The translations under genes and the position numbers were made by a program. Positions 1,974-23,952 of a stretch of 64,000 bases of DNA are shown here, in pieces. This DNA comes from Patescibacteria group bacterium (lineage in GTDB: Bacteria > Patescibacteriota > Patescibacteriia > Patescibacteriales > UBA12465). The notes beneath the pieces were generated by a model. That model saw nothing but the letters and a program-made list of their open reading frames with translations, had not been told where the DNA came from and did no database searches. The stretch is from positions 35,656-99,655 of the forward strand of contig JBAYIC010000003.1 of NCBI GenBank assembly GCA_041665845.1, read 5' to 3'. Position 1 is the stretch's first letter; each line of letters starts with the position of its first letter.

Positions 1974-2408
1974 TTAATTTAAATCTTTAGACAAGAACAT
2001 AGCAATTTCTTTGCCCGTGTTATCATAATATCTATCATTAAAGCCGCAAACCCGAAAACCATTTTTGAGATAAGCGATTAAAGCGTTGCTTAAAGAAGGC
2101 GCCTCAGCCATAACTGTTCTCGCTTTAATGGCCTTAGCTTCTTTAATAATCTTTTTAATCAACTTGGTCCCATAACCATTTTTACGAAAATTAGGATGCA
2201 CAAAAATATCTATCACTGAAGCTGAATTGTTCCATAAATAGTGGTGAAAACCGCTAAAGCCGATAATTTTATTATTTTCAACCCCCACATAGAAATAATC
2301 ATGATTGCCTTCAATAATTTTTTTAAAATCTCTAATCTCTTTAAAATATTTATCATTCAGGCGATTAATTTCTGGGAGGTCTTTAATTGTTGCCCTTAAT
2401 ATTTTCAT
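1974..2408 (-). CDS. GNAT family N-acetyltransferase
   Basis: Acetyl-CoA binding R-x-x-G-x-G motif (RKNGYGTKL) and GNAT-size protein (144 aa). Confidence 0.7.
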   Translation of the reverse strand: MKILRATIKDLPEINRLNDKYFKEIRDFKKIIEGNHDYFYVGVENNKIIGFSGFHHYLWNNSASVIDIFVHPNFRKNGYGTKLIKKIIKEAKAIKARTVMAEAPSLSNALIAYLKNGFRVCGFNDRYYDNTGKEIAMFLSKDLN

Positions 2409-2842
2409 ACATTTATATCTAACTTTTTTATTACTGAGAGATAAACCCTCTCAAACCATTCAACTTTATCTAACTCCATAATTTCCTTTAATCCAAAGAA
2501 TTTTATTTTCTGCCCTTCTCTTAAAAATATATTCTGAATATTGCCTTGATAAAGAAACGAATAAATGAAATGATGATATATTTTATCTCCTCCAATGTCT
2601 TCAATCTCACTAATAAATATCGGGGTTATATCTAAACCCAGCTCTTCTCGCACTTCTCGTTTTATGCATTCAAGCGGCGTTTCCTTAATTTCCTTACCGC
2701 CACCAATCATCCCCCATTTTGCCGAACCGTTAATCTTAGGGTCTTTATCTCTTAATTGCAATAGCACCTGTTGATTGCTATTTATAATTAAAACCTCACA
2801 AACTTCTATAATTTCCATTTTATTTAATAATTGCCCTATCAA
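2405..2842 (-). CDS. NUDIX hydrolase
   Basis: Nudix box GGGKEIKETPLECIKREVREELGL (GX5EX7REUXEEXGU). The start may be the internal MEIIEV (2818), which would remove the overlap with the upstream gene. Confidence 0.75.
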   Translation of the reverse strand: MIGQLLNKMEIIEVCEVLIINSNQQVLLQLRDKDPKINGSAKWGMIGGGKEIKETPLECIKREVREELGLDITPIFISEIEDIGGDKIYHHFIYSFLYQGNIQNIFLREGQKIKFFGLKEIMELDKVEWFERVYLSVIKKLDINV

Positions 2843-3990: not shown

Positions 3991-4713
3991 TTATATTTTT
4001 TTTGCTATCCACCATAACCGATGGGCTCGCAAAATAATTCCTCCTTTTTTATGCATCAATTCTATCTGGGCTAAATATTTTGTATCTTTCTTTTTATCAA
4101 AATCAGCAATGATTGGTGTTCTTTCTAAAGTTCTAACTACAGCGTTAAGAGAAGAAAATTTTTGATGGTATACAAAATCTTTTAATAAAACTTTTTTAAG
4201 TTTAAACTGGTCAAAAAGCTTCTGTACCGATTCTCTTTTTTTTATAAAATACGGAAAATTTTGACCTCGATTAAAAATCTTTTTTAATTCTATTTTATCA
4301 GTTTCGCCGATAGTCTCTTCAATTAAAAGTCCATCCTTTTTTAAAACTCTTAAGGCCTCCTTAAAAAAAATAGAATTGGCTGATACTGGGCCACGAGAAC
4401 TATAAACAACATCAAACATTTCATCTTTAAATGATAGCTTCCGACCGTCCTGGACTTTGAATAATACATTCTCTATTTTTTGATTTTTTTTATCTTTATT
4501 GGCAGTTTTTATATAATTCGCAAAACAATCAATACCGATAATTCTTTTACAATGACGAGATAGCTGTGTGGTGAGTTCACCAGAGCCACAACCTAAATCT
4601 AAAACCACAAAATCTTTACTAATATTTTCAACTAATAGCTTTAAAAACGCTGGTTTAGCACCACAAACTACTTGAGCGCCAGATTTAAACTGATATCTGC
4701 TAAATTGTTTCAT
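3991..4713 (-). CDS. class I SAM-dependent methyltransferase
   Basis: Motif I VLDLGCGSGELT, and acidic residue at the end of beta2 (IGID). First gene of the operon that continues into queC. Confidence 0.7.
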   Translation of the reverse strand: MKQFSRYQFKSGAQVVCGAKPAFLKLLVENISKDFVVLDLGCGSGELTTQLSRHCKRIIGIDCFANYIKTANKDKKNQKIENVLFKVQDGRKLSFKDEMFDVVYSSRGPVSANSIFFKEALRVLKKDGLLIEETIGETDKIELKKIFNRGQNFPYFIKKRESVQKLFDQFKLKKVLLKDFVYHQKFSSLNAVVRTLERTPIIADFDKKKDTKYLAQIELMHKKGGIILRAHRLWWIAKKI

Positions 4714-7193: not shown

Positions 7194-8258
7194 ATGTCAT
7201 TATCAATTGGAATTGTTGGCTTGCCAAACGTTGGCAAATCAACTTTATTTAACTTATTAACCAAAAAGGGGGTCGAAGCCGCTAATTATCCTTTTTGTAC
7301 CATAGATCCTAACGTCGGAGTTGTAAAAGTCCCTGATTTTCGCCTAGAAAAGTTAGCTGAAGTCTCAAAACCAAAGAAAATCATCCCAACTACTATTGAA
7401 TTCGTCGATATTGCTGGTTTAGTGGCTGGGGCAAGCAAAGGAGAGGGCTTGGGAAATCAATTTTTGGCTCACATTAGAGAATGTAACGCCATCTGCGAAG
7501 TGATTAGAGATTTTAAAGATAAGAATATTATTCATGTTAATGGTAAAATCGACCCAGCTGATGATAAAGAAACGATTAATATGGAACTAATTTTCGCTGA
7601 TTTAGCAACGGTAGAGAAAAGATTGGATAGAATGAAACGTGATGTAAAAAGTGGCGACAAGGAAATTAAAAGCAATTTAGTAGTCTTAGAAAAAATATTT
7701 GCTCAATTGAGTGCCGGAAAAGCAATTAGAGAGCTAGAATTTGAAGAAGAAGACTTAGTGTTTGTTAAAAGCTTAAGTCTTTTAACTATTAAGCCTATTC
7801 TTTACCTCTTAAATACCGATGAGGAAACCGCTGGTGATGTTCTACCGGGAACCAATGAAGAAATAATTAACATTAATGTAAAACTTGAAGAAGAAATCGT
7901 TAATTTACCTGAGGAGGACCAAGCGGAATATATTAAAGAACTTGGTTTATCGCAAAGCGGCCTTGATAAACTTATCCAAAGCGCTTATAAATTGCTCGGC
8001 CTTGATACCTTTTTTACGACCGGTCCGGACGAAACTAGAGCTTGGACGATTAAGAAGGGTTCGAAGGCGCCACAAGCGGCGGGAGAAATCCATACTGATT
8101 TCATTAAGGGCTTTGTTCGCGCGGAAGTCATTAACTGGGAAAAATTTATTGAATGTGGTTCAGAAGGTAAAGCAAGAGAACTAGGACTGATGAAAATTGA
8201 AGGGAAAGAATATATAGTTTCTGATGGAGATGTTTGTAATTTTTTGATTAATAAATAA
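7194..8258 (+). CDS. ychF: ribosome-binding ATPase YchF (Obg-family GTPase)
   Basis: G1 motif GIVGLPNVGKSTLFN, Obg-type G domain with insertion and C-terminal TGS-like domain. About 354 aa. Confidence 0.9.
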   Translation: MSLSIGIVGLPNVGKSTLFNLLTKKGVEAANYPFCTIDPNVGVVKVPDFRLEKLAEVSKPKKIIPTTIEFVDIAGLVAGASKGEGLGNQFLAHIRECNAICEVIRDFKDKNIIHVNGKIDPADDKETINMELIFADLATVEKRLDRMKRDVKSGDKEIKSNLVVLEKIFAQLSAGKAIRELEFEEEDLVFVKSLSLLTIKPILYLLNTDEETAGDVLPGTNEEIININVKLEEEIVNLPEEDQAEYIKELGLSQSGLDKLIQSAYKLLGLDTFFTTGPDETRAWTIKKGSKAPQAAGEIHTDFIKGFVRAEVINWEKFIECGSEGKARELGLMKIEGKEYIVSDGDVCNFLINK

Positions 8259-15380: not shown

Positions 15381-15468
15381 GGAGACGTGGCAGAGTTGGT
15401 TGAATGCGCCACACTCGAAATGTGGTATACCAGAAATGGTATCAGGGGTTCGAATCCTCTCGTCTCCG
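15381..15468 (+). tRNA. tRNA-Ser (anticodon CGA), class II with long variable arm
   Basis: Acceptor GGAGACG/CGTCTCC, anticodon stem CCACA/TGTGG with loop CTCGAAA, variable arm TATACC...GGTATC, T-loop TTCGAAT. Confidence 0.85.
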
Positions 15469-15537
15469 CTAGTAAATTTTAGGCTAATACTAGTCTATTT
15501 TATTTAAATGTTCAATTGACAATCGTAATATATTTAC

Positions 15538-15566
15538 TTGACAATCATAAATATCTGCTTTACAAT
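15538..15566 (+). promoter_or_regulatory. sigma70-like promoter TTGACA-N17-TACAAT, start codon about 7 nt downstream (leaderless or near-leaderless)
   Basis: Exact TTGACA at 15538-15543 and TACAAT at 15561-15566 with a 17-nt spacer. A second TTGACAATC copy lies 22 nt upstream (15516). Confidence 0.6.
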
Positions 15567-15573
15567 AGCTAAT

Positions 15574-16596
15574 ATGAATGACAAATCGATTAAAATTAGA
15601 GAATTTATTTTCAGAATGTTACCAGCACATTCTAATAACATTGTAGCTTTGACGGCAGCTGAATTTGGTATGACGCGTCAAGCGGCTCATTTATATATAA
15701 CTAAAGAAATAAAAAGTGGAAATATAGTTAAAACTGGTGAAACAAAATCAGCTAGATATTTCTTAATCGGCGGTGAAAAAGTCGAATTTAGTTGTAAAAT
15801 AAAAACGGGACTGGAAGAAGACAGAATCTGGTCAAAGTATGTAAAACCTATGATTTTGAAATATTCTTATAATATTCAAACTATCATTGCCTTCGGTTTT
15901 ACAGAGATTTATAATAACGCAATAGATCATTCCAACGGGACAATAATATATGTTCAAATTGAAGTTATAGGAGATAATATAGTAATAACAATAATGGATA
16001 ACGGGATAGGAATATTTAAAAAAATCCAAGCATCTTTAAAACTAGACTCTATAAGAGAATCTTTGTTGCATTTATCAAAAGGTAAGTTTACTACTGACCC
16101 GACAAAACATACGGGCGAAGGAATATTTTTTACTTCTAGGATTTTTGATCGATTTTCTATATTATCAAGCGACCTATATTACAGTTTTAAAGATCAGGAC
16201 TGGCTACTTTCTAGTGAAAAAAATGAAACTTTTGGCAAAGGGACATTAATAAAAATGATCATCTCTAAAAATTCTAAAAAAACACCAAAAGAAATTATGG
16301 ACAAATATACTGACGAGGAATTTGGTTTTTCTAAAACAACAGTCGCTGTAGCTTTGAGCGCGGATCCCAACGATCCTCACGTTTCAAGATCCCAGGCAAA
16401 GCGTTTAATGATGGGTTTGGATAAATTTAAAACCATAGTTTTAGATTTTAAAAGCATCCCCGATGTAGGCCAGGCATTTGTTGATGAAATATTTAGAGTT
16501 TTCCAGAACGAACACCCTTCTACACAAATCCAATATATAAACGTGAATGAGGACGTGGAGAATATGATTAAAAGGGGGACGCTATTAAAATCTTAG
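15574..16596 (+). CDS. fused wHTH / GHKL (RsbW/SpoIIAB-like anti-sigma-type kinase) / STAS-like (DUF4325-like) protein
   Basis: N-terminal HTH-like segment (VALTAAEFGMTRQAAHLYITKE), GHKL N-box EIYNNAIDHSNGT and G-box IMDNGIGIFKK, then a C-terminal about 100-aa STAS-like region. The track's TTG start (15538) is rejected because it is the -35 box. Confidence 0.55.
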   Translation: MNDKSIKIREFIFRMLPAHSNNIVALTAAEFGMTRQAAHLYITKEIKSGNIVKTGETKSARYFLIGGEKVEFSCKIKTGLEEDRIWSKYVKPMILKYSYNIQTIIAFGFTEIYNNAIDHSNGTIIYVQIEVIGDNIVITIMDNGIGIFKKIQASLKLDSIRESLLHLSKGKFTTDPTKHTGEGIFFTSRIFDRFSILSSDLYYSFKDQDWLLSSEKNETFGKGTLIKMIISKNSKKTPKEIMDKYTDEEFGFSKTTVAVALSADPNDPHVSRSQAKRLMMGLDKFKTIVLDFKSIPDVGQAFVDEIFRVFQNEHPSTQIQYINVNEDVENMIKRGTLLKS

Positions 16597-16645
16597 TATA
16601 AAAAATCTTGTAATAGATTGTAACTTTATTTATGCGAGAAATTTT

Positions 16646-17254
16646 ATGTTTAAAGAATTTTACAACAAATTATATTCAGAAAATGAAATTACTTATGAAG
16701 ACGGAAAGCCTGATGATATAGTAGAAGATATACTTAAATTTAAGTCATTCGGTTCGGCCTTAGAAATTGGCGCTGGCGAAGGAAGAAACGCCTTATTTTT
16801 AGCAGAACATGAATTCCAAACAACTGCCCAAGATATTTCTCAAGTGGGCATAGAAAAAATAAATAAATTATCCAAAGAAAAACATATAGACATAAAAACA
16901 GAAATCAGCGATGTTCGTTCATTAAATTTAAATTGTAATTTTGATGTTTTAGTTTGTAGCTCTATGTTGCATCAACTTACACGAGAAGAAGCCTTAAAAT
17001 TAATTGAGCAAATTAAAGAACATACAAATCCGGAGGGATTAAATGTAATCAAAACCTTTACAGAAAACGGAGACTTCTATCGGACAAACCCTGATACGAA
17101 TAATTTTTATGTAAAAAATGATGAGCTTCAAAAGCTTTATGAAGGATGGGAAATTTTAGAATATAAGGAGTCTGAGAGTGAAGCGCATAAACAAAATCCA
17201 GATGGGAGCCAAATGATAAACATATCAGCAAAAATACTAGCAAAGAAAATATAA
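16646..17254 (+). CDS. TehB-like class I SAM-dependent methyltransferase
   Basis: Motif I LEIGAGEGRNALFLA. The C-terminal block LYEGWEILEYKESESEAHKQNPDGSQ closely parallels the TehB C-terminus. Confidence 0.75.
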   Translation: MFKEFYNKLYSENEITYEDGKPDDIVEDILKFKSFGSALEIGAGEGRNALFLAEHEFQTTAQDISQVGIEKINKLSKEKHIDIKTEISDVRSLNLNCNFDVLVCSSMLHQLTREEALKLIEQIKEHTNPEGLNVIKTFTENGDFYRTNPDTNNFYVKNDELQKLYEGWEILEYKESESEAHKQNPDGSQMINISAKILAKKI

Positions 17255-17283
17255 ATATGCCAAAAGTAAAATAATTCGAACTT

Positions 17284-17862
17284 ATGTCGAATATTAATGA
17301 AAACAAAATAAAAGAAGAAGCGGAAAAGCATTTACTTCGATGCCGTCCTGGTGATAGAAATCATGCTCTTAGAGTTGTTGAGTGGATTAAAGAACTTGGA
17401 AAGAATCACACCGATCTTCTCTTAATAATTACCGCGGGATACATTCACGATATAGGTTGGGAGGGGGTGTTCCCAGCATGGAAAGAAAAAATTACTTTTG
17501 ATGAATTGATTCAATTTGAAAAACAGGCAAATAATAACTCCATGAAATTTGCCACAAATTTTCTAAATGACTTGGGGTTTGAAGATGACGATATAGTAAC
17601 GATTAACCGACTTATCAAAGCGGCTGACGAACACAAATCCGAAAAAGACGACGAGGCAGTCATTGTTGACGCTGATCAATTGAGTAAAATGAACATTAAT
17701 CATCTCAAAGAAAAATTCAAGCCATCAGAATGGATGAAAATGCATGAACTGTGGTTTAGGAAATTTCCAGAACGAATACAAACTGAAAAAGGTAAGGAGA
17801 TATACCCAAGTTTATTGGATAAACTAAAAAATGCCATTGAAAAAGAAATTGCCACTACCTAA
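17284..17862 (+). CDS. HD-domain phosphohydrolase
   Basis: H...HD metal motif: HALRVVEW ... GYIHDIGW. Confidence 0.65.
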   Translation: MSNINENKIKEEAEKHLLRCRPGDRNHALRVVEWIKELGKNHTDLLLIITAGYIHDIGWEGVFPAWKEKITFDELIQFEKQANNNSMKFATNFLNDLGFEDDDIVTINRLIKAADEHKSEKDDEAVIVDADQLSKMNINHLKEKFKPSEWMKMHELWFRKFPERIQTEKGKEIYPSLLDKLKNAIEKEIATT

Positions 17863-17938
17863 AACATAGTCTATTATAACGGATAGCCGATATAGACATT
17901 TTAACATGTTTGTTTAAGCACTAATTATAAATTTATTT

Positions 17939-18394
17939 ATGCGAGAAATTGAAAGAATAATTGTATCCGCTCTAATCTTTAGCAAAGACGGAAAGTTATT
18001 AATGGGCCAAAAAGATCCGGTAAAAGGCGGTGTATACCCCGATTGTTGGCATATCCCTGGTGGAGGAGTTGATGTAGGGGAAACATTAGAGCAAGCTCTT
18101 CAACGCGAAGTGTTAGAAGAAACGGGAATTGATATTTCTAATTATGAAATTGTTACCGTTCCTTTTATTGATTCGGCAATTACAGAAAAAACTCTAAAAA
18201 CAGGCGAGGTGGTATTATGTAAGATGGAGTTTAATCGTTTCGAAATTTATATAAATAATAAAACTGCTGAGGAAATAAAGCTAAGCCCCACGGACGACCT
18301 AGTAGAAATACAATGGTTCGATAAAAAAAGGTTGTCTGATATAAAAAATATTCCCGGCGGAAAGGAATTTTTCCAAAAAATGGGTTATATTTAA
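17939..18394 (+). CDS. NUDIX hydrolase
   Basis: Nudix box GGGVDVGETLEQALQREVLEETGI. Confidence 0.75.
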   Translation: MREIERIIVSALIFSKDGKLLMGQKDPVKGGVYPDCWHIPGGGVDVGETLEQALQREVLEETGIDISNYEIVTVPFIDSAITEKTLKTGEVVLCKMEFNRFEIYINNKTAEEIKLSPTDDLVEIQWFDKKRLSDIKNIPGGKEFFQKMGYI

Positions 18395-18411
18395 AAACAT
18401 TATTAATTTTT

Positions 18412-18903
18412 ATGAAAAGTAGCAAAATGGTTATTTGTAATGATATAGAAGGTAAAAAATATAAAGTTGGTTCTAACCAATTAAGTTTCAGGCCATCTGT
18501 ATATGGAGTAATTATAAAAAATGGAAAGATTTTATTATCAAAACAATGGGGCGGTTATAATCTTCCGGGAGGAGGAATGGATCTGGGAGAAACAATAGAG
18601 GGCGCCTTAAAAAGAGAAGTATTTGAAGAAACCGGTATTAAAATACGAGTTGGAAAAGTTATTGACTGTAAAAACTCATTCTTTAAACTTCCTTTTTCGG
18701 GTAAATATGTTCACTCCATTCTCATGTTTTATACTTGTGAGGCGCTAAATAATAGAATAGATACCAAGAAATTAAGTAATGACGAAAAGCAATATAGCGA
18801 TTTTCCAGAATGGATGGATTTAAAAAATCTTAAAAAATTAAAATTTCGTTGTTCAATTGACAGTTCAAATATTATTAAAAAGGCGTTAGCAAAAAAGATA
18901 TAA
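18412..18903 (+). CDS. NUDIX hydrolase
   Basis: Nudix box GGGMDLGETIEGALKREVFEETGI. Paralogue of the preceding gene, 18 nt downstream of it. Confidence 0.75.
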   Translation: MKSSKMVICNDIEGKKYKVGSNQLSFRPSVYGVIIKNGKILLSKQWGGYNLPGGGMDLGETIEGALKREVFEETGIKIRVGKVIDCKNSFFKLPFSGKYVHSILMFYTCEALNNRIDTKKLSNDEKQYSDFPEWMDLKNLKKLKFRCSIDSSNIIKKALAKKI

Positions 18904-18905
18904 AT

Positions 18906-19403
18906 ATGCCCAAAGTAACCATCAGATATCAATTAATAAAGGACGCTCGGAGGTTTTTTGAGATTTTAAATAATCCTAACTTTATTTATTTTCCTACTTC
19001 TGTAAACTCGGTCGCCGAGGAGAAAAAGATACTCAAAGAAAATGCTCAAAAAAGAAAAGATAATATATCATGGAATTATTCTATTCTTTACGGTAATCAG
19101 TTAGTAGGCGGAATTGGCGTAAGAATTAATCGCACTCGTCCTTATGCTGGTGAGATTGGCTATTTTGTTGATGAAAAATATTGGGGGAAAGGAATAAGCA
19201 CCCAAGCAGTTAAACTAGCCGAACAGGAGGGCTTCAAAAAGCTTGGTTTAAACAGAATAGAAATAATTATGCGCCCAGAAAATAAGGCGAGCGAAAAAGT
19301 TGCTATTAAAAACGGCTACAAAAAAGAAGGGCGGATGAAGAAGGCTATTAAAGATAAAAACGGAATGATGAGAGATGCCCTTCTATATGCTAAAACTTTA
19401 TAA
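18906..19403 (+). CDS. GNAT family N-acetyltransferase (RimJ/RimL-like)
   Basis: GNAT fold length of 165 aa. Motif A region YWGKGISTQAVKLAEQEGF. Starts 3 nt after the preceding stop. Confidence 0.7.
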   Translation: MPKVTIRYQLIKDARRFFEILNNPNFIYFPTSVNSVAEEKKILKENAQKRKDNISWNYSILYGNQLVGGIGVRINRTRPYAGEIGYFVDEKYWGKGISTQAVKLAEQEGFKKLGLNRIEIIMRPENKASEKVAIKNGYKKEGRMKKAIKDKNGMMRDALLYAKTL

Positions 19404-19429: not shown

Positions 19430-19482
19430 AAATAAAAAAGCTTCGTTTCCAACATTAATTGTCGAAAACGAAGCCTCTTTTA
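19430..19482. terminator. bidirectional terminator between convergent genes
   Basis: Stem gcttcgttt/aaacgaagc with a long loop, flanked by an A-run and ctctttt. Confidence 0.5.
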
Positions 19483-20034
19483 AACTTCTTGTGCCGCCAG
19501 AAACAAAGCGTGATGTTGGTTGACATCTTCTTTATACGTGAGATCAACCTTGAAGTCTTGATTTACTCCGACGATACTGGGGTAAAGCTTTACTATCCCA
19601 TGACGGAGACTAAGGTGATCATTGGAAAGGATAAAATATTTTCCTTTACCATTTAAAACCCCGTCTTCCTTAATGAGCTTAGCGAGTACACTCATCTCAA
19701 TGATATCAGATGTCTGAAATTTTGCTTGTTGCAATAATTCTAAAGCTTCTTCATCATTAGGATAAGGGTTTTCTCCTCCCTCCCACAAGTCAATTAACGA
19801 AAGTCTCATTAGGTTTCTGGCTCCTGTCTTTTTCGACTGGAGCCTCAACACATCCAGACTAACAATTGACGACATAATAGGTGCAAACGCCATGAGTGTA
19901 GAGGCATAATACACCTTAATCAACTTTTCCCAAACTACTTTGAATTTCAGCGGTTCGGGCTTTTTAATTTCTGAAGTTTCAGCGCCTCGCCATCTCGGTA
20001 GCGCTAGTTGCGTAACTGGTACGAAAGGACTCAT
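19480..20034 (-). CDS. hypothetical protein (compositionally GC-richer than surroundings)
   Basis: 184-aa ORF with no recognised motif and visibly higher G+C than the flanks. Confidence 0.45.
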   Translation of the reverse strand: MSPFVPVTQLALPRWRGAETSEIKKPEPLKFKVVWEKLIKVYYASTLMAFAPIMSSIVSLDVLRLQSKKTGARNLMRLSLIDLWEGGENPYPNDEEALELLQQAKFQTSDIIEMSVLAKLIKEDGVLNGKGKYFILSNDHLSLRHGIVKLYPSIVGVNQDFKVDLTYKEDVNQHHALFLAAQEV

Positions 20035-20211
20035 TAATTTGAGTTTTAGTTAGTAAAAAATTGTTAATAAACACAAATTACATCTTAACCCTTTAATTAA
20101 AATCTGTCAACATGTAATAAGTGAGGGCAAGATAAGAAAAACGAAGATTCATTTGATAAAAATCAAAAAATTGATATAATCAATAAGACAACTTAAATTA
20201 ATAATAAATAT

Positions 20212-20865
20212 ATGATGCCAGACCAACAATTTAATAATTTTATAAAACCAGTTAATCCAACGAAACCAGAAGAAGAAATAAACCAACTTCCCGATGATTT
20301 TCCAAAATACCAAGCTCCCGACCAAGACCAATATAAAATTTCCCGTGCCGGAATGCCTGAAAATGATAAGAGAATGTTTTTTGATAACAAAGGTCAGCTA
20401 GACGAAGAAATGACTACTAGACTATGGTATGGCATTACAAAAGCAGCACAAATGAATAATGTTAACATTCCAACTGAAGATCCGCGAATTATAGAGATAG
20501 CCTCCATTGGAGCTTTAAAAGGAATCCCTTTTAAGGAATGCATTGAAAAATCTGGAGCATATACATCAATGGCCTCTCTACCAGAAGGAGACGCGGAAAG
20601 ACAAAAGCTCCTTGATTTCCAAGCTAATATAATTTCACGTTCATTTACTAAAAATTTACGAGAAAATATTGCTAGTGTACCAGAACTTTCAGCTATCATA
20701 AATCGTTTTCTAACGGCTAAAATACAAAACGAAGCCAATCTTTCAAGAAAAACGATGCTTAAAGATCAAGGGAATGATGATGATTTAACCAAAAAATTAA
20801 GAGAGGAATATTTAGCCGCTTACAAAGAACTCGAGGATGCGGTAAAAAAGAACAATTTAAACTAA
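20212..20865 (+). CDS. hypothetical protein
   Basis: 217-aa ORF that is N-terminally Pro/Gln/Asp-rich. No family recognised. Confidence 0.45.
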   Translation: MMPDQQFNNFIKPVNPTKPEEEINQLPDDFPKYQAPDQDQYKISRAGMPENDKRMFFDNKGQLDEEMTTRLWYGITKAAQMNNVNIPTEDPRIIEIASIGALKGIPFKECIEKSGAYTSMASLPEGDAERQKLLDFQANIISRSFTKNLRENIASVPELSAIINRFLTAKIQNEANLSRKTMLKDQGNDDDLTKKLREEYLAAYKELEDAVKKNNLN

Positions 20866-20878
20866 TCAAGCTTCCACA

Positions 20879-20909
20879 CAAAAAAACAGAGCTAACACTC
20901 TGTTTTTTA
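20879..20909. terminator. bidirectional rho-independent terminator
   Basis: Stem acagag/ctctgt, loop ctaaca, with A-run and T-run on either side. Confidence 0.6.
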
Positions 20910-20934
20910 AATATATAAAATTTAAAAGAAAAAA

Positions 20935-21795
20935 TTAAAATTTCCCTGGTTGTCCAGTTATTTTATCTACCATTTTCTTTTCAAAAGACATCCCTACAGC
21001 TGCTGCGCCGCGCGCCTCATTTTCATCTTCTTCTTTTTGCATTTTTACAATTTTTTCTCTTTGCTCAGGTGTTTCAATTTTAATAATGTTTCTATCATCC
21101 AATTCGATAAAATCTCCCCCTCCCTTAATCTGAGCTCTTATTATCGGCCCCGCTTCTTTGTTAAACTCATTTCTCTTTTTTTCTTCAAATAGCTCCCCTT
21201 CTTTAAAAAATCGATCGCTACCCTCTCTATATGGCAGGCGTCCAGCTTTCTCTTTAAATTCCTGGTCCCTCTTCAGTTTACCGCGGTCCCATCTTTCTCG
21301 CTCCTCTTCAGCAGTGGGCATATGAATATCATAAATTTTATAAAAACTCCCTTTTGAATACACCTCATCGCCTGGTTCTAATTTTTTATTTTCTCCTTTT
21401 TCGCTACCATTCTCTTCTGCGTTCGCTAATGGCGGCTTTTCTCCTTTTTCTAACTCAACCCTAGTAATACTTTCGTCATTTTTTAATTTCTCAAAATCTA
21501 CGTAATTACCATTACCTAATTTATTATAAAGAGTTTTTAGTTGCTCTTCCGCCTGCGTAACCTCATAAGGTAAGTCGCTATTATTCTCAGGTATACCAAT
21601 ACTTTCTCTCTCTTTATTAATCTCTGCTAAAGAGTCGTTTTTATTTTCTCGAAATTTTTCAAGCTCCTGATTAAACACCGACGGCTTAATTTGTTCGGCA
21701 ACTTCAGGCGCATTTTCTACGACTGCTTCATTTTGACCGGGCATTACTTCTGGATTAGTTTTCTTTTCAAATGGATTTTGATGTTCAGGATTCAT
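20935..21795 (-). CDS. hypothetical highly charged (E/K-rich) protein
   Basis: 286-aa ORF of low-complexity acidic/basic composition, with no signal peptide. Confidence 0.45.
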   Translation of the reverse strand: MNPEHQNPFEKKTNPEVMPGQNEAVVENAPEVAEQIKPSVFNQELEKFRENKNDSLAEINKERESIGIPENNSDLPYEVTQAEEQLKTLYNKLGNGNYVDFEKLKNDESITRVELEKGEKPPLANAEENGSEKGENKKLEPGDEVYSKGSFYKIYDIHMPTAEEERERWDRGKLKRDQEFKEKAGRLPYREGSDRFFKEGELFEEKKRNEFNKEAGPIIRAQIKGGGDFIELDDRNIIKIETPEQREKIVKMQKEEDENEARGAAAVGMSFEKKMVDKITGQPGKF

Positions 21796-21816: not shown

Positions 21817-23952
21817 TTATTTAATCGGCAATGAAAAGGAAAAAGTAACTCCTCTATCTTCTTTAGTTTCAAATATCAATTCCCCGCCATGAGCACTAAC
21901 AATTTTTTTGGCAATAAATAAACCAAGACCAAAACCATTAGGCGAAACCGCGATTGCTTCTGGGCTACGAAAAAATTTCTTAAATATTTCAGGTTTGCTA
22001 TCATCCGTAATACCAATACCATTATCAGAAATAGCGACTATTAGCTTTGATTTTTTGTTAAACGTTTCTTTCTTAACAGAAATATCTATCTTCCCTTCAG
22101 CGGAGACATAATTAATGGCATTAGCTAATAAAATACCCAGAACCGTTTTAATTTTAGTAGCATCACAAATGACTTCGGAATTAATCTCATCATCTTCAAT
22201 TGTGAGTTTTATCTTTTTATTATTAAGATTTATTTGATTATCTTCAACAACTCGATTTATCAAATCTGTTATCTTTACCGGCTTTTTAGCAAGCATGACT
22301 TTCTTCTCTTCAATTTCTAAAACGGTTACTAGTTGATCGAGTTGGCGCCCCAAGGAAAGTATCCCATAATAAGCGGATCTAACTGTCTCAGTTTTCTCTT
22401 CCGGAGAAATTGTGTCATCAAAGAAAAGCTCTAAATTATAACGCGTTATCGTCACTGGCGTTCTAAGTTGATGAGAAACAACAGAGACAAAATTTGATTT
22501 AACTTTATCCAATCTTTTTAACTCCTCATAAGAACTAGCATTATCAATTGCAAAGCTCATTTCCCAGGCGACATGACGTAAAAGTCTAAGATCTTCTTGA
22601 GTATAGGGGTCTTGAGATTTTTTAGGGCCAAGTAAATACACGCCAATTAATTTATTTTTAAGCTCAATCGGAATAACCAATGCAAAATCATTTTTAACCA
22701 ATTCTTTAATAACCTGGTTAACTGATACATCTGGTATATCTTTATTATAATTATCTCGTTCTAATTCATCTTTATCTAAGATTCTTTTTTTATAAATATT
22801 AAGATATTTAATAATCGGATTATTGTGTTTTAATTTAAAATTCTCTGTTTCTCTACCGATAACTTGACGAGAAATGAAATTACCTTTAGGAATAAGAATC
22901 ATAATTTCGCCATGTTCAACCTTTAAGGCGTCGGTTATAACCTTATTAATGATTTCGAGAGTCTTATCTAAATTTAAGCCGATTTCATGAATACTTGATT
23001 CAATTTTTCTCGCAACATCAGAAAATTTATATTGCTGCTTAAAGAATATCTGATCCGTCGCCTTTTCTAAAAATTTCTTGATTGGCGAAAAACCAAAGGT
23101 AATAAAAAAGGACGGAATAATAAAGTTCCAAGGGGATTCTACCTGCAAAAAAATAATCAAAAAATAGCTAGCGGACGCATATATAAAGATAATTGTGGAT
23201 AATAAGAATGTATAAATAGCCCCTAAGCGCAAAATCACACCGATATTCATCAAACGATAACGTACAATTGCGTAATATATACAGGCAATCAATATAATCG
23301 GACTAAAATTTCCGATTATAAATACCTCCCGAGAAACTGTATTTTGTAAAAATAAATTAAATGTTAAAGTAATAATCGAAGTAACAGCAAATCCAAAAAG
23401 GACATATCGAACCTGCATTTTTTTGATTCCTATAATCCGGTGCAACTGCACAATTTGGTAACCAATAGCAATAATTAAATAAACTAAGATCAAAGCAGTA
23501 TAAACATTAAACCATGGCCCAAAGTCAAAACCAATTTTGTTATTATCAAAATTTATATTTCTAATTATTTTATCGGTTAAAATTAAACCGGAAATAAATA
23601 GGGTTGGTAGCACCAACCAAACAGCATATTTGCTTAGTTTTCTATTCGGTTCGGGAAAATTAAGTAAGAACAAAAAAATAAGGAAGAAAACAAATGGACC
23701 AAGTATAAAGTCGAGCTTCAGAAAAATAATTGCGAAGTCGGCTGAGGTCAACAGGTTTTCCAGAAAATTACTTGCGCACCAAACAGCTAACACTATCGAG
23801 AGCAGAAAAAATAGGCCGTTAGTGAGAGATTTCTTATTTCTTGAAAAAGCGGCATATCCCAAACTAGCCATTGAGATTGAAATAAAGAAAGTAACGATGA
23901 TAAAGAATATTAACATAAAAATATAAAATAATATGATTATATTATATCTCAA
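21817..23952 (-). CDS. sensor histidine kinase with polytopic N-terminal membrane domain and GAF-like domain
   Basis: About 8 N-terminal TM helices. HisKA H-box SHQLRTPVT and HATPase_c N/G boxes (LANAINYV, ISDNGIGI, GFGLGLFIAKKIV). No response regulator is adjacent. Confidence 0.8.
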   Translation of the reverse strand: MRYNIIILFYIFMLIFFIIVTFFISISMASLGYAAFSRNKKSLTNGLFFLLSIVLAVWCASNFLENLLTSADFAIIFLKLDFILGPFVFFLIFLFLLNFPEPNRKLSKYAVWLVLPTLFISGLILTDKIIRNINFDNNKIGFDFGPWFNVYTALILVYLIIAIGYQIVQLHRIIGIKKMQVRYVLFGFAVTSIITLTFNLFLQNTVSREVFIIGNFSPIILIACIYYAIVRYRLMNIGVILRLGAIYTFLLSTIIFIYASASYFLIIFLQVESPWNFIIPSFFITFGFSPIKKFLEKATDQIFFKQQYKFSDVARKIESSIHEIGLNLDKTLEIINKVITDALKVEHGEIMILIPKGNFISRQVIGRETENFKLKHNNPIIKYLNIYKKRILDKDELERDNYNKDIPDVSVNQVIKELVKNDFALVIPIELKNKLIGVYLLGPKKSQDPYTQEDLRLLRHVAWEMSFAIDNASSYEELKRLDKVKSNFVSVVSHQLRTPVTITRYNLELFFDDTISPEEKTETVRSAYYGILSLGRQLDQLVTVLEIEEKKVMLAKKPVKITDLINRVVEDNQINLNNKKIKLTIEDDEINSEVICDATKIKTVLGILLANAINYVSAEGKIDISVKKETFNKKSKLIVAISDNGIGITDDSKPEIFKKFFRSPEAIAVSPNGFGLGLFIAKKIVSAHGGELIFETKEDRGVTFSFSLPIK

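What the first reader, a model, noticed from the sequence alone, without database searches (positions are those of the whole stretch)
15516..19403. Promoter-to-terminator cluster: fused wHTH / RsbW-like GHKL kinase / STAS-like protein, then TehB-like MTase, HD hydrolase, two NUDIX hydrolases and a GNAT
The lead gene (15574-16596) joins in one polypeptide an N-terminal HTH-like segment, a GHKL ATPase core with anti-sigma-factor-kinase-like N and G boxes (NAIDHSNGT; DNGIGI), and a C-terminal about 100-aa STAS-like module. Together these form a self-contained partner-switching kinase and antagonist attached to a DNA-binding domain. It sits behind a textbook TTGACA-N17-TACAAT promoter whose +1 is at or within a few nt of the ATG (leaderless), with a second TTGACAATC copy 22 nt upstream that could be an operator. 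Five enzymes follow on the same strand with gaps of 3-77 nt: a TehB-like SAM methyltransferase, an HD phosphohydrolase, two paralogous NUDIX hydrolases and a GNAT. The block ends at a bidirectional terminator (about 19430-19482). This could be a stress or phage-triggered nucleotide-pool sanitising or depleting module governed by a one-component serine-kinase switch. That reading is speculative, but the lead gene's domain fusion is unusual and visible directly in the sequence.
Basis: partly seen in the sequence, partly recalled or inferred. Interest (0 to 1): 0.65.

Follow-up and report, generated by a model that had tools for sequence, protein, structure and literature searches.

The report
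Self-regulated HTH–kinase–STAS solo gene
The lead gene belongs to a very large, unstudied family of one-protein switches (DNA-binding domain, anti-sigma-type kinase domain, STAS-like domain) that carries its own promoter inside three conserved DNA repeats, while the five enzyme genes behind it are chance neighbours.

Summary
The 340-aa lead protein (15574-16596) has a MarR-type winged HTH, a SpoIIAB-like GHKL domain and a DUF4325 STAS-like domain. TehB-like, HD, two NUDIX and GNAT genes follow it on the same strand.

The "nucleotide-sanitising operon" reading fails. None of 80 species genomes, and none of the closest relatives (70-88% identical), has these enzymes next to the gene. No other partner gene is conserved either. 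The lead gene is a solo unit.

The new result is a cis-element. Such arrays precede family members in many phyla: 69 of 85 loci have three or more units, against 1.9% of control upstream regions. The repeat motif changes together with the HTH recognition helix.

The best model is an autorepressor that sits on its own promoter, with DNA binding gated by the ATP-binding GHKL/STAS module. This would be a single-chain, domain-permuted analogue of CapK/CapS (2026). The signal and the output are unknown. The STAS-like domain lacks the canonical phospho-serine. Some arrays lie without the gene in phage contigs, and divergent family members lie in prophages.

The parts
15381..15469 (+). tRNA-Ser(CGA), the upstream boundary. 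Its 3' end, a small hairpin (about 15480-15497), the repeat array and the gene form the nucleotide block shared with the closest relatives.
   Evidence: ARAGORN and Rfam at 57.5 bits. DNA alignment with L089, L092 and L091. tRNA scan of relatives. Hairpin fold -7.8 kcal/mol.
15516..15523 (+). Repeat unit 1, TTGACAAT. Proposed operator site.
   Evidence: family-wide array
15538..15545 (+). Repeat unit 2, TTGACAAT. It contains the -35 hexamer (15538-15543).
   Evidence: 22 bp from unit 1
15559..15566 (+). Repeat unit 3, TTTACAAT. It contains the -10 hexamer TACAAT (15561-15566) and ends 7 nt before the ATG, with no Shine-Dalgarno sequence between them.
   Evidence: 21 bp from unit 2
15574..16596 (+). 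Lead gene: a 340-aa wHTH / GHKL / STAS-like protein, annotated in databases as a DUF4325 or STAS-like domain-containing protein.
15574..15771 (+). MarR/ArsR-type winged HTH (residues 1-66). The recognition helix is residues 35-47 and holds R35-Q36.
   Evidence: AlphaFold secondary structure with pLDDT above 90. Pfam hits on homologous N-termini. PDB profile hit to an ArsR-family protein. The R-Q pair goes with the TTKACAAT arrays.
15811..16314 (+). GHKL (Bergerat-fold) ATP-binding domain of the SpoIIAB/RsbW type (residues about 80-247). It has the N box E111/N115, the G1 box D142-x-G144-x-G146, and a lid reading K169-G-K-F-T-T-D-P..H179-T-G-E-G183.
   Evidence: Pfam HATPase_c. Invariant residues. 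Foldseek to SpoIIAB, TM 0.72-0.77. BLASTP to a SpoIIAB sequence recalled from memory.
16336..16584 (+). DUF4325 STAS-like domain (residues about 255-337). S271-R272-S273 are invariant at the start of its first helix. G299-Q300-A301 occupy the canonical phospho-serine position.
   Evidence: Pfam DUF4325 at 9.3e-14. Foldseek hits to RsbS 6jhk_B and to SLC26 STAS domains. Invariant residues. Secondary structure.
16646..19403 (+). Five same-strand neighbour genes: TehB-like methyltransferase 16646-17254, HD 17284-17862, NUDIX 17939-18394, NUDIX 18412-18903 and GNAT 18906-19403. They may be read through from the lead promoter in this genome but are not part of the conserved unit.
   Evidence: Pfam and NCBIfam. 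No plus-strand terminator call between 15574 and 19403, and a promoter-like site at 17849-17877. Absent next to all homologues. HD homologues lie elsewhere.
19434..19480 (.). Terminator hairpin shared by convergent transcription units. It is strong on the minus strand and weaker on the plus strand.

Best explanation
Gene 15574-16596 is one member of a very large, uncharacterised family of roughly 340-aa single-chain regulators. Each has a MarR-type winged HTH, a SpoIIAB/RsbW-type GHKL ATP-binding (kinase-like) domain and a DUF4325 STAS-like domain.

The gene is an autonomous unit. Its promoter lies inside an array of three direct 8-bp repeats (TTGACAAT, TTGACAAT, TTTACAAT; 22 and 21 bp apart, about two helical turns). 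Unit 2 supplies the -35 box and unit 3 the -10 box. The mRNA of this copy is probably leaderless.

Most likely mechanism:
- Shown: the array is conserved with the gene, and the motif changes together with the recognition helix.
- Inferred: several protomers bind the three units through the winged HTH on one face of the DNA and repress the gene's own transcription.
- Inferred by analogy with CapK/CapS and with SpoIIAB/SpoIIAA: the ATP-binding GHKL domain and the STAS-like domain form a sensor. ATP binding, hydrolysis or phosphotransfer changes oligomerisation or DNA binding.
- Unknown: the signal, and any output beyond autoregulation.

The five enzyme genes downstream are unrelated accessory genes that happen to follow on the same strand in this genome. 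At most they are read through from the lead promoter.
For: Architecture. Pfam finds HATPase_c and DUF4325. Relatives hit MarR_2 and HATPase_c_2. The AlphaFold model has mean pLDDT 79. The best PDB matches are SpoIIAB (1til, 1l0o, 1tid; probability 1.0, target TM 0.72-0.77), then a SigF anti-sigma factor (8jzt) and the RsbS STAS domain. The ATP-site residues are invariant in 78 sequences from many phyla.

Family size and fixed architecture..

Solo status.
- No conserved neighbour among the flanking genes (three on each side) of the roughly 80 loci.
- The downstream gene is on the opposite strand in 41 loci and on the same strand in 35.
- At most 4 of 130 neighbouring proteins share any Pfam family.
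- The closest relatives have entirely different neighbours.

Array.
- 69 of 85 loci have three or more units at 20-23 bp spacing, against 19 of 976 control upstream regions.
- The unit consensus is G-TT[G/T]ACAAT, and the last unit ends 12 nt or less before the start codon in 32 of 59 loci.
- Of 44 assessable variable-spacer arrays found blind in metagenomes, 38 lie directly upstream of a family member.
- In the 64-kb window the paired motif occurs only here, and single sites are not enriched: 9 found against 11 expected.

Co-variation. 63 of 64 loci with TTKACAAT arrays have R-Q in the recognition helix. Loci with other motifs have SRTT, TPTT, TRMT or SVQA instead. Fisher p = 1e-7, not corrected for phylogeny, and about four independent lineages.

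Analogy. CapK/CapS (PMC13373217).
Against: - No experiment exists for any family member, and no literature was found.
- TTGACA and TACAAT are also the sigma-70 consensus boxes. Part of the motif's conservation could therefore come from RNA polymerase rather than from the HTH.
- The STAS-like domain lacks the canonical phospho-serine, so the CapS/SpoIIAA-type switch cannot be copied directly.
- A regulator that regulates only itself has no evident output.
- About 15 arrays in phage contigs and 5 in metagenome contigs have no family gene nearby, so the array has a life beyond autoregulation.
- The inter-domain geometry of the model could not be inspected because no coordinates were available.
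Confidence: 0.6

Rival explanations
1. The six genes form one stress- or phage-triggered operon in which the kinase switch governs a nucleotide-pool sanitising or depleting set of enzymes (methyltransferase, HD, two NUDIX, GNAT).
For: All six genes lie on the same strand, with gaps of 2-76 nt. There is no plus-strand terminator call between 15574 and 19403, and a hairpin follows at 19434-19480. NUDIX and methyltransferase domains give weak PADLOC hits (PDC-S07, mad2).
Against: - None of 80 species-representative loci has a TehB, HD or GNAT homologue anywhere in the flanks held (up to 8 kb a side); the few weak NUDIX hits there lie 2-7 kb from the gene, not next to it.
- Relatives at 88%, 86%, 81% and 70% identity have wholly different neighbours.
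- HD homologues at 65-69% identity lie among unrelated genes.
- A promoter-like site (10/12) sits in the 76-nt gap before the first NUDIX gene.
- The PADLOC hits are generic domain matches.
Confidence: 0.05
2. Conflict-system reading. The protein is a one-gene anti-phage or phage-phage exclusion factor, behaving like a moron (a phage accessory gene with its own promoter). It binds repeat arrays on incoming DNA, or is titrated by arrays that phages carry, and its GHKL kinase/ATPase is the effector or trigger.
For: - About 40 distinct prophage-like IMG/VR contigs encode divergent family members next to terminase, tail, endolysin, integrase and repressor genes.
- phrog_3364, a phage family of unknown function, matches the HTH-GHKL part.
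- About 15 arrays of the same AAGGTTGACAAT type lie without the gene in real phage contexts.
- Distribution across phyla is sporadic, with no synteny.
- A few neighbours are defence genes: JetC/JetD, reverse transcriptases, Cas1 and four SNase-LTD proteins.
- The closest characterised relatives by architecture, CapK/CapS and VapKSC, are immune regulators.
Against: - The lead protein has no PADLOC hit.
- There is no recognisable toxic effector domain.
- Nothing was found in 50,697 GenBank phages or 72,556 plasmids.
- No systematic defence-island context appears in the window or in most loci.
- The window copy sits among housekeeping-type genes (tRNA, pseudouridine synthase).
Confidence: 0.2
3. 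The array is only a compound sigma-70 promoter (phased -35 and -10 look-alikes). The winged HTH binds other, unidentified targets, so the protein is an ordinary trans-acting regulator or a DNA-tethered anti-sigma factor.
For: TTGACA is the -35 consensus and TACAAT is close to the -10 consensus. The spacing of 21-22 bp puts the hexamers 17-18 bp apart. The GHKL domain resembles SpoIIAB, which binds a sigma factor.
Against: - Three to five units are kept where two would suffice.
- The full 8-mer plus the flanking G is conserved in both GC-rich and AT-rich phyla.
- Lineages with a changed recognition helix have a changed repeat. In Nitrospinota this is a 17-bp palindrome overlapping a separate TTGACA-17-TATAAT promoter.
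- No sigma factor gene is linked.
Confidence: 0.12

Closest known systems
CapK + CapS, regulators next to immune operons (Chambers et al., EMBO J 2026, PMC13373217)
   Same: It uses the same three domain types: HTH, an anti-sigma-type GHKL kinase and STAS. In CapK/CapS the DNA-binding STAS protein represses its own promoter and the kinase releases it. This is the best working analogy.
   Different: - CapK/CapS is two genes (CapK is HTH-STAS-GHKL, CapS is STAS-wHTH). Here there is one chain, ordered wHTH-GHKL-STAS.
- CapS has an absolutely conserved phospho-serine. This family has G-Q-A at that position.
- CapS binds TTAA palindromes. Here there are three direct TTGACAAT repeats.
- capKS precedes an immune operon in 348 of 443 cases. 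This family has no conserved neighbour.
- No sequence-level link was detected: the PDB searches returned neither, whether or not their structures are in the copies searched.
SpoIIAB/SpoIIAA and RsbW/RsbV partner-switching modules
   Same: The GHKL domain is structurally closest to SpoIIAB and has the same N, G1 and lid motifs (FTT[K/D]P..G-x-G). The C-terminal domain has the STAS fold.
   Different: The parts are fused into one chain with a DNA-binding domain. No sigma factor or phosphatase partner gene is present. The canonical serine on STAS helix 2 is missing. Nothing shows that a sigma factor is bound.
VapKSC toxin-antitoxin (same paper) and PIN.4 genes coupled to DUF4325 genes (Matelska et al. 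2017, PMC5499597)
   Same: Both pair a GHKL kinase with a small STAS-type protein. DUF4325-encoding genes are reported as transcriptionally coupled to a VapC-like PIN group.
   Different: No PIN or other toxin gene lies next to this family. Whether VapS belongs to DUF4325 was not tested here.
Iteron-type autoregulated promoters of plasmid Rep proteins (own knowledge: P1 RepA, R6K pi, RK2 TrfA)
   Same: Both have direct repeats at about 22-bp phasing, bound by a winged-helix protein, with the gene's own promoter embedded in the repeats.
   Different: There is no replication context. The protein has no Rep fold, and nothing was found in 72,556 plasmids. This is a resemblance of layout only.
phrog_3364 (PHROGs; function unknown)
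   Same: It matches residues 86-241 of the window protein at E = 1e-10, and also matches the prophage-borne homologues.
   Different: It covers only the HTH-GHKL part and is itself uncharacterised.

Membership tests
Database family 'DUF4325 / STAS-like domain-containing protein' with the HTH-HATPase-DUF4325 architecture | DUF4325 (PF14213) match above the gathering score | tested here: met
   51.3 bits against a cut-off of 23
Database family 'DUF4325 / STAS-like domain-containing protein' with the HTH-HATPase-DUF4325 architecture | HATPase_c match, and full-length collinearity with family members of about 340 aa | tested here: met
   HATPase_c at 32.9 bits against 26.4. Homologues align over residues 1-335.
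Database family 'DUF4325 / STAS-like domain-containing protein' with the HTH-HATPase-DUF4325 architecture | Array of direct repeats at 21-22 bp spacing directly upstream (a signature defined in this study) | tested here: met
   Units at 15516, 15538 and 15559. 69 of 85 loci have three or more units.
Anti-sigma factor serine kinases (SpoIIAB/RsbW; Pfam HATPase_c_2) | Bergerat fold with N, G1 and G2/lid motifs of the SpoIIAB type | tested here: met
   Foldseek probability 1.0, target TM 0.72-0.77. Invariant E111, N115, D142, G144, G146, G181 and G183. Alignment.
Anti-sigma factor serine kinases (SpoIIAB/RsbW; Pfam HATPase_c_2) | HATPase_c_2 gathering score reached | tested here: inconclusive
   The window protein scores 22.8 bits against 27.4. 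Several relatives pass at 30-36 bits.
Anti-sigma factor serine kinases (SpoIIAB/RsbW; Pfam HATPase_c_2) | Linked sigma factor and separate antagonist genes; binding of a sigma factor | tested here: not met
   No such neighbours in the window or in about 80 loci. Binding itself cannot be tested with these tools.
Anti-sigma factor serine kinases (SpoIIAB/RsbW; Pfam HATPase_c_2) | Serine protein kinase activity | not testable with these tools
   Needs an in vitro kinase assay.
STAS anti-sigma antagonists (SpoIIAA/RsbV/RsbS) | STAS fold | tested here: met
   DUF4325, described by Pfam as a STAS-like domain. Foldseek hit to RsbS 6jhk_B at probability 1.0, and to SLC26 STAS domains.
STAS anti-sigma antagonists (SpoIIAA/RsbV/RsbS) | Conserved phosphorylatable Ser/Thr at the N-terminus of helix alpha-2 | tested here: not met
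   The equivalent position, before helix 300-313, is G299-Q300-A301, invariant or nearly so in 61-78 sequences. The position was assigned by hand against SpoIIAA, whose sequence was recalled from memory.
CapK/CapS | Two adjacent genes: HTH-STAS-GHKL kinase followed by a STAS-wHTH repressor | tested here: not met
   A single gene ordered wHTH-GHKL-STAS. No STAS-wHTH gene is adjacent.
CapK/CapS | Located upstream of an immune operon | tested here: not met
   No conserved downstream gene: 41 of 76 downstream genes are on the opposite strand. PADLOC hits among neighbours are scattered.
CapK/CapS | Activation by single-stranded DNA and phosphorylation-dependent release from DNA | not testable with these tools
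   Needs biochemistry. W86 and W210 are invariant; I put them forward, without evidence, as candidate ligand-contact residues.
Known anti-phage defence systems (PADLOC-DB v2) | Match of the lead protein to a defence-system model | tested here: not met
   0 families at E of 0.01 or less
   No TehB, HD or GNAT homologue in the flanks of 80 loci, and only weak NUDIX hits 2-7 kb away; nor in the closest relatives. HD homologues lie elsewhere.

The most novel reading that the evidence does not exclude
The family is a new kind of one-gene, promoter-resident sensor found across bacteria. Its cognate DNA array is also used in trans. Phages carry arrays without the gene, either as targets or as decoys that titrate the protein, and prophages carry their own divergent copies. 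Gene and array would then form a protein/DNA-element conflict pair, comparable in logic to BstA and its aba element (own knowledge), rather than a mere autoregulator.
Probability: 0.15. Interest if true: 0.85.

Novelty: new variant of a known kind. Interest (0 to 1): 0.6.

Why it matters
Thousands of bacteria, from genome-reduced Patescibacteria to Proteobacteria and Chloroflexi, carry this protein, and nothing is known about it.

The work gives a concrete, testable handle. The protein has a defined DNA site: three phased TTGACAAT units that contain its own promoter. Each of its three domains has clear predicted roles and mutable residues: R35/Q36, N115/D142, and S271/S273.

It also extends the recently discovered CapK/CapS logic (a kinase plus a STAS domain controlling a repressor) to a fused, stand-alone form. 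That form is far more widespread than capKS itself (443 loci reported).

Arrays in phage contigs and family copies in prophages suggest a possible role in phage-host conflict.

For annotation, the result warns against reading same-strand gene runs in Patescibacteria genomes as operon-level modules.

Tried and rejected
- PDB sequence searches with the full protein and with the C-terminal domain returned no CapS, VapS or SpoIIAA-type match.
- Literature searches for DUF4325, TTGACAAT repeats, STAS/GHKL and 'STAS-like' found nothing on this family apart from the CapK/CapS paper.
- tblastn against GenBank phages and PLSDB plasmids gave no hit, including with a prophage-borne homologue as query.
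- Longer family members (390-684 aa) were checked for informative extra domains. None was found, and they look like gene-calling fusions.
- I considered that the winged HTH might mimic sigma region 4, because it reads TTGACA. I rejected this at the family level: the N-termini hit MarR, ArsR and HTH_11 models, not Sigma70_r4.
- I considered an integrative island at tRNA-Ser. There is no composition shift, no integrase, and no direct repeat of the tRNA end downstream. Homology with relatives ends at the stop codon.
- I considered a regulon within the window. No second paired site exists in 64 kb.
- Most exact triple-motif hits in the public collections are plain tandem or coding repeats and were set aside (69 of 120 metagenome hits and about 22 of 37 viral hits).

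Full report
**Setting.** The window is 34% G+C. Its lead protein is identical to one annotated in a Patescibacteria (CPR) metagenome-assembled genome. The region shows no composition shift. tRNA-Ser(CGA) at 15381-15469 lies immediately upstream of the finding.

**Observation check.**
- The lead gene is 15574-16596 (340 aa). Homologues start MN(N/D)KS, which fixes the ATG at 15574 rather than the upstream TTG.
- Pfam finds HATPase_c (32.9 bits) and DUF4325/STAS-like (51.3 bits), both above their cut-offs. HATPase_c_2, the RsbW-type model, scores 22.8 bits, just below its cut-off.
- The downstream genes are a TehB-like SAM methyltransferase (far below the TehB equivalog cut-offs), an HD protein, two NUDIX proteins and a RimL-like GNAT.
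- The TTGACA-17-TACAAT promoter at 15538-15566 is the best promoter-like site in the region, at 11/12.
- The hairpin at 19434-19480 is strong on the minus strand (-31.6 kcal/mol, z -8) and moderate on the plus strand (-14 kcal/mol, z -3.6). It is mainly the terminator of the convergent gene.

**The lead protein.** An AlphaFold2 model built from a 61-sequence alignment has mean pLDDT 79. The N-terminal winged HTH exceeds pLDDT 90, and only the ATP lid (171-180) and one linker fall below 50.
- Foldseek against the PDB ranks SpoIIAB first (1til, 1l0o, 1tid; probability 1.0, target TM 0.72-0.77). A SigF anti-sigma factor (8jzt), Hsp90, GyrB and histidine-kinase ATP domains follow. The RsbS and SLC26 STAS domains match the C-terminus.
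- A pairwise BLASTP to a SpoIIAB sequence that I recalled from memory aligns the N box, the G1 box and the lid: FTTDP..TGEG against FTTKP..SGMG.
- The N-termini of 82 homologues hit MarR_2 (41), HTH_11 (32) and HTH_24 (32). A profile of these N-termini hits an ArsR-family structure.
- In 78 sequences from many phyla, the invariant residues include E111, N115, D142, G144, G146, K169-G-K171, T173, D175, H179, G181-E-G183, S271-R-S273, G299, F302 and D304. The ATP site is therefore intact.
- The position that carries the phospho-serine in SpoIIAA, RsbV and CapS is the N-terminus of STAS helix alpha-2, here just before helix 300-313. It reads G299-Q300-A301.

**The fusion is not rare.** One search returned more than 7,900 clusters at 90% identity, and the top 120 are all about 340 aa long. 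A scan of 1.84 billion representatives found 715 clusters at 50% identity with E below 1e-30, nearly all full length. At least 584 species genomes carry the family. They include Patescibacteria, Chloroflexota, Planctomycetota, Nitrospinota, Nitrospirota, Acidobacteriota, Gemmatimonadota, Burkholderiales, Gammaproteobacteria, Desulfobacterota, Spirochaetota and Omnitrophota. Databases call these proteins 'DUF4325 domain-containing protein', 'STAS-like domain-containing protein', 'anti-sigma regulatory factor (Ser/Thr protein kinase)' or 'ArsR family regulator'. No paper on the family was found.

**The operon idea fails.**
- With the window's TehB-like, HD, NUDIX and GNAT proteins as queries, 80 species loci held with up to 8 kb of flank on each side contain no TehB, HD or GNAT homologue. 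The only NUDIX hits there are a few weak ones 2-7 kb from the gene.
- The closest relatives have unrelated neighbours. The 88% relative has LAGLIDADG upstream and PadR, pentapeptide and LRR genes downstream. The 86% relative has RelB/ParE and HD upstream and a convergent AdoMet decarboxylase. The 81% relative has DUF4202 and an aminotransferase. The 70% relative lies divergent from dnaA-dnaN.
- Clustering of the flanking genes (three on each side) finds no family shared by more than 6 loci.
- The next gene downstream is on the opposite strand in 41 loci and on the same strand in 35.
- At most 4 of 130 neighbouring proteins share a Pfam family.
- The HD gene's own homologues (65-69% identical) sit among unrelated genes.
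- In the window, read-through from the lead promoter remains possible, because no plus-strand terminator is called. However, a 10/12 promoter-like site lies in the gap before the first NUDIX gene.

**The new finding: a conserved repeat array.** I aligned the 110-130 nt upstream of the homologues. In the window the units are TTGACAAT (15516), TTGACAAT (15538) and TTTACAAT (15559), spaced 22 and 21 bp, and the last ends 7 nt before the ATG.
- The same layout, three (range 2-5) direct copies of TT[G/T]ACAAT at 21-22 bp, precedes family members in AT-rich CPR and in GC-rich Burkholderiales alike.
- 69 of 85 loci have three or more phased units, against 19 of 976 (1.9%) control upstream regions from the same loci.
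- The unit logo is G-TT[G/T]ACAAT, with a weak A/G-rich 5' flank. The last unit ends 12 nt or less from the start codon in 32 of 59 loci. In the CPR group the distance is typically 6-7 nt with no Shine-Dalgarno sequence, which fits a leaderless mRNA.
69 are plain tandem or coding repeats. Of the 51 with variable spacers, 38 lie directly upstream of a family member, 7 are at contig ends, 1 has the gene elsewhere and 5 have no family gene nearby.
- In the 64-kb window the paired motif occurs only here. Single sites are not enriched: 9 found against 11 expected.

**The HTH reads the repeats (inference).** 63 of 64 loci with TTKACAAT arrays have R-Q at positions 35-36 of the recognition helix. Lineages with other upstream motifs have other helices:
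- Nitrospinota have SRTT or TPTT. Their motif is a 17-bp palindrome, ATTACCACTAGTTATAA..TTATAACTAGTGGTAAT, which overlaps a separate TTGACA-17-TATAAT promoter.
- L074 has TRMT, with the motif TGTTATAAAC.
- L071 has SVQA, with the motif TGTTTACTA.

Fisher p is 1e-7, uncorrected for phylogeny, and the signal rests on about four independent lineages. This argues that the array is the protein's own operator rather than only a compound sigma-70 promoter.

**Mechanism proposed.**
- Shown: the architecture, the intact ATP site, the array linked to the gene, and the co-variation of HTH and motif.
- Inferred: protomers occupy the three units on one DNA face and occlude the -35 and -10 boxes, giving autorepression.
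- Inferred by analogy: the GHKL domain and the STAS-like domain form the signal-sensing part.

The closest characterised system is CapK/CapS. There an HTH-STAS-GHKL kinase, activated by ssDNA, phosphorylates a STAS-wHTH repressor on a conserved serine and releases it from its own promoter and from that of the adjacent operon. The present family differs in five ways: one chain instead of two genes, a different domain order, no canonical serine, direct repeats instead of palindromic sites, and no dependent operon. It therefore works like CapK/CapS at most in outline and is not a member. My own suggestions for where to look first are these. The acceptor or ligand-contact residues could be the invariant S271/S273, which lie at the N-cap of STAS helix alpha-1 in a position reminiscent of RsbR T171 (own knowledge). 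The invariant W86 and W210 may compare with CapK W68.

**Phage connections (unexplained).**
- The exact triple motif occurs in 37 IMG/VR contigs, none with a family gene in the flanks held. About 15 of them have variable spacers and the same AAGGTTGACAAT core as proteobacterial loci. They sit among real phage genes (P22-type coat, DnaB, RusA, integrase, methylases), with no recurrent downstream ORF.
- Separately, 60 IMG/VR loci (about 40 distinct) encode divergent family members at 32-43% identity with different recognition helices. They lie next to terminase subunits, tail, endolysin, integrase and repressor genes.
- phrog_3364, of unknown function, matches the HTH-GHKL part.
- GenBank phages and PLSDB plasmids nevertheless give no hit, and PADLOC has no model for the protein.
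- A few neighbours in cellular genomes are defence genes (JetC/JetD, reverse transcriptases, Cas1, SNase-LTD), without any pattern.

A role in phage-host conflict is therefore possible but unproven.

**Local context in close relatives.** The nucleotide block shared by the window, L089, L092 and L091 runs from the 3' end of a tRNA-Ser through a small hairpin and the array to the stop codon, where similarity ends abruptly. The window and L089 have whole tRNA-Ser genes with different anticodons (cga, gga). In L092 and L091 ARAGORN finds no tRNA at that spot, and only a 3' remnant aligns. CPR copies are 60-88% identical across CPR lineages although synteny is absent. Together this suggests that the gene and its promoter move, or are retained, as a unit.

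**Verdict.** The object of interest is an autonomous gene-plus-array module of a huge uncharacterised family. It is best described as a fused, permuted, stand-alone variant of the kinase/STAS/HTH regulators typified by CapK/CapS. Its signal and output are unknown.

Noticed in passing
L097/L108, L098, L099, L104, L111, L112, L115/L124, L116, L118, L121, L122, L125, L126 (IMG/VR contigs); L168, L202, L213, L216, L238 (metagenome contigs): TTGACAAT x3 arrays without the gene: variable spacers, AAGGTTGACAAT core, 21-22 bp period, and no family gene in the flanks held. Several lie in real phage genomes. Two lie next to tRNA genes: L097/L108 directly after a tRNA 3' end, and L126 about 100 nt before one.
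   Followed up: partly
L254-L313 (IMG/VR contigs): Divergent family members (32-43% identity, different recognition helices such as ISLNTVYRY) lie in about 40 distinct prophage-like contigs. They sit beside terminase small and large subunits, tail, endolysin, integrase and repressor genes, a position typical of phage accessory genes that carry their own promoter (morons).
   Followed up: partly
window 15381-15573; L089 7812-8000; L092 about 7890-8000; L091 about 4530-4638: In the four closest relatives the gene is preceded by a tRNA-Ser 3' end. The window (anticodon cga) and L089 (gga) have a whole tRNA. L092 and L091 have only a 3' remnant at that spot. L091 also has a whole tRNA-Ser(tga) about 950 nt upstream. 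A conserved small hairpin, TAGGCTAATA(C/T)TAGTCTA followed by a T-run, comes next.
   Followed up: partly
L024, L034, L045, L075 (Nitrospinota loci), upstream of the homologue: These loci replace the direct repeats with a long palindrome, ATTACCACTAGTTATAA..TTATAACTAGTGGTAAT, which overlaps a perfect TTGACA-17-TATAAT promoter. Their recognition helix reads SRTT instead of SRQA.
   Followed up: partly
L003-L006 (homologue P0018, 70% identical): Here the family gene lies divergent from dnaA-dnaN across a 412-bp intergenic region that holds its repeat array. That places it in the presumed origin region. This is probably coincidental.
   Followed up: no
window 19480-21795: Three ORFs (184 aa on the minus strand, 217 aa on the plus strand, and a Glu/Lys-rich 286 aa on the minus strand). 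The first has only weak, sub-threshold Pfam matches and no NCBIfam, PADLOC or PHROG match; the second has no PHROG match and was not run against the other libraries; the third was not scanned at all. They lie between the cluster and a 711-aa membrane sensor histidine kinase (21817-23952, minus strand).
   Followed up: no
window 17849-17877: A promoter-like site, TTGCCA-17-TATTAT (10/12), lies in the 76-nt gap before the first NUDIX gene. The NUDIX-NUDIX-GNAT trio may therefore have its own promoter.
   Followed up: no
window 2405-2842 (minus strand): A third NUDIX-family ORF in the window, weakly similar to the first NUDIX of the cluster (E = 7e-7).
   Followed up: no
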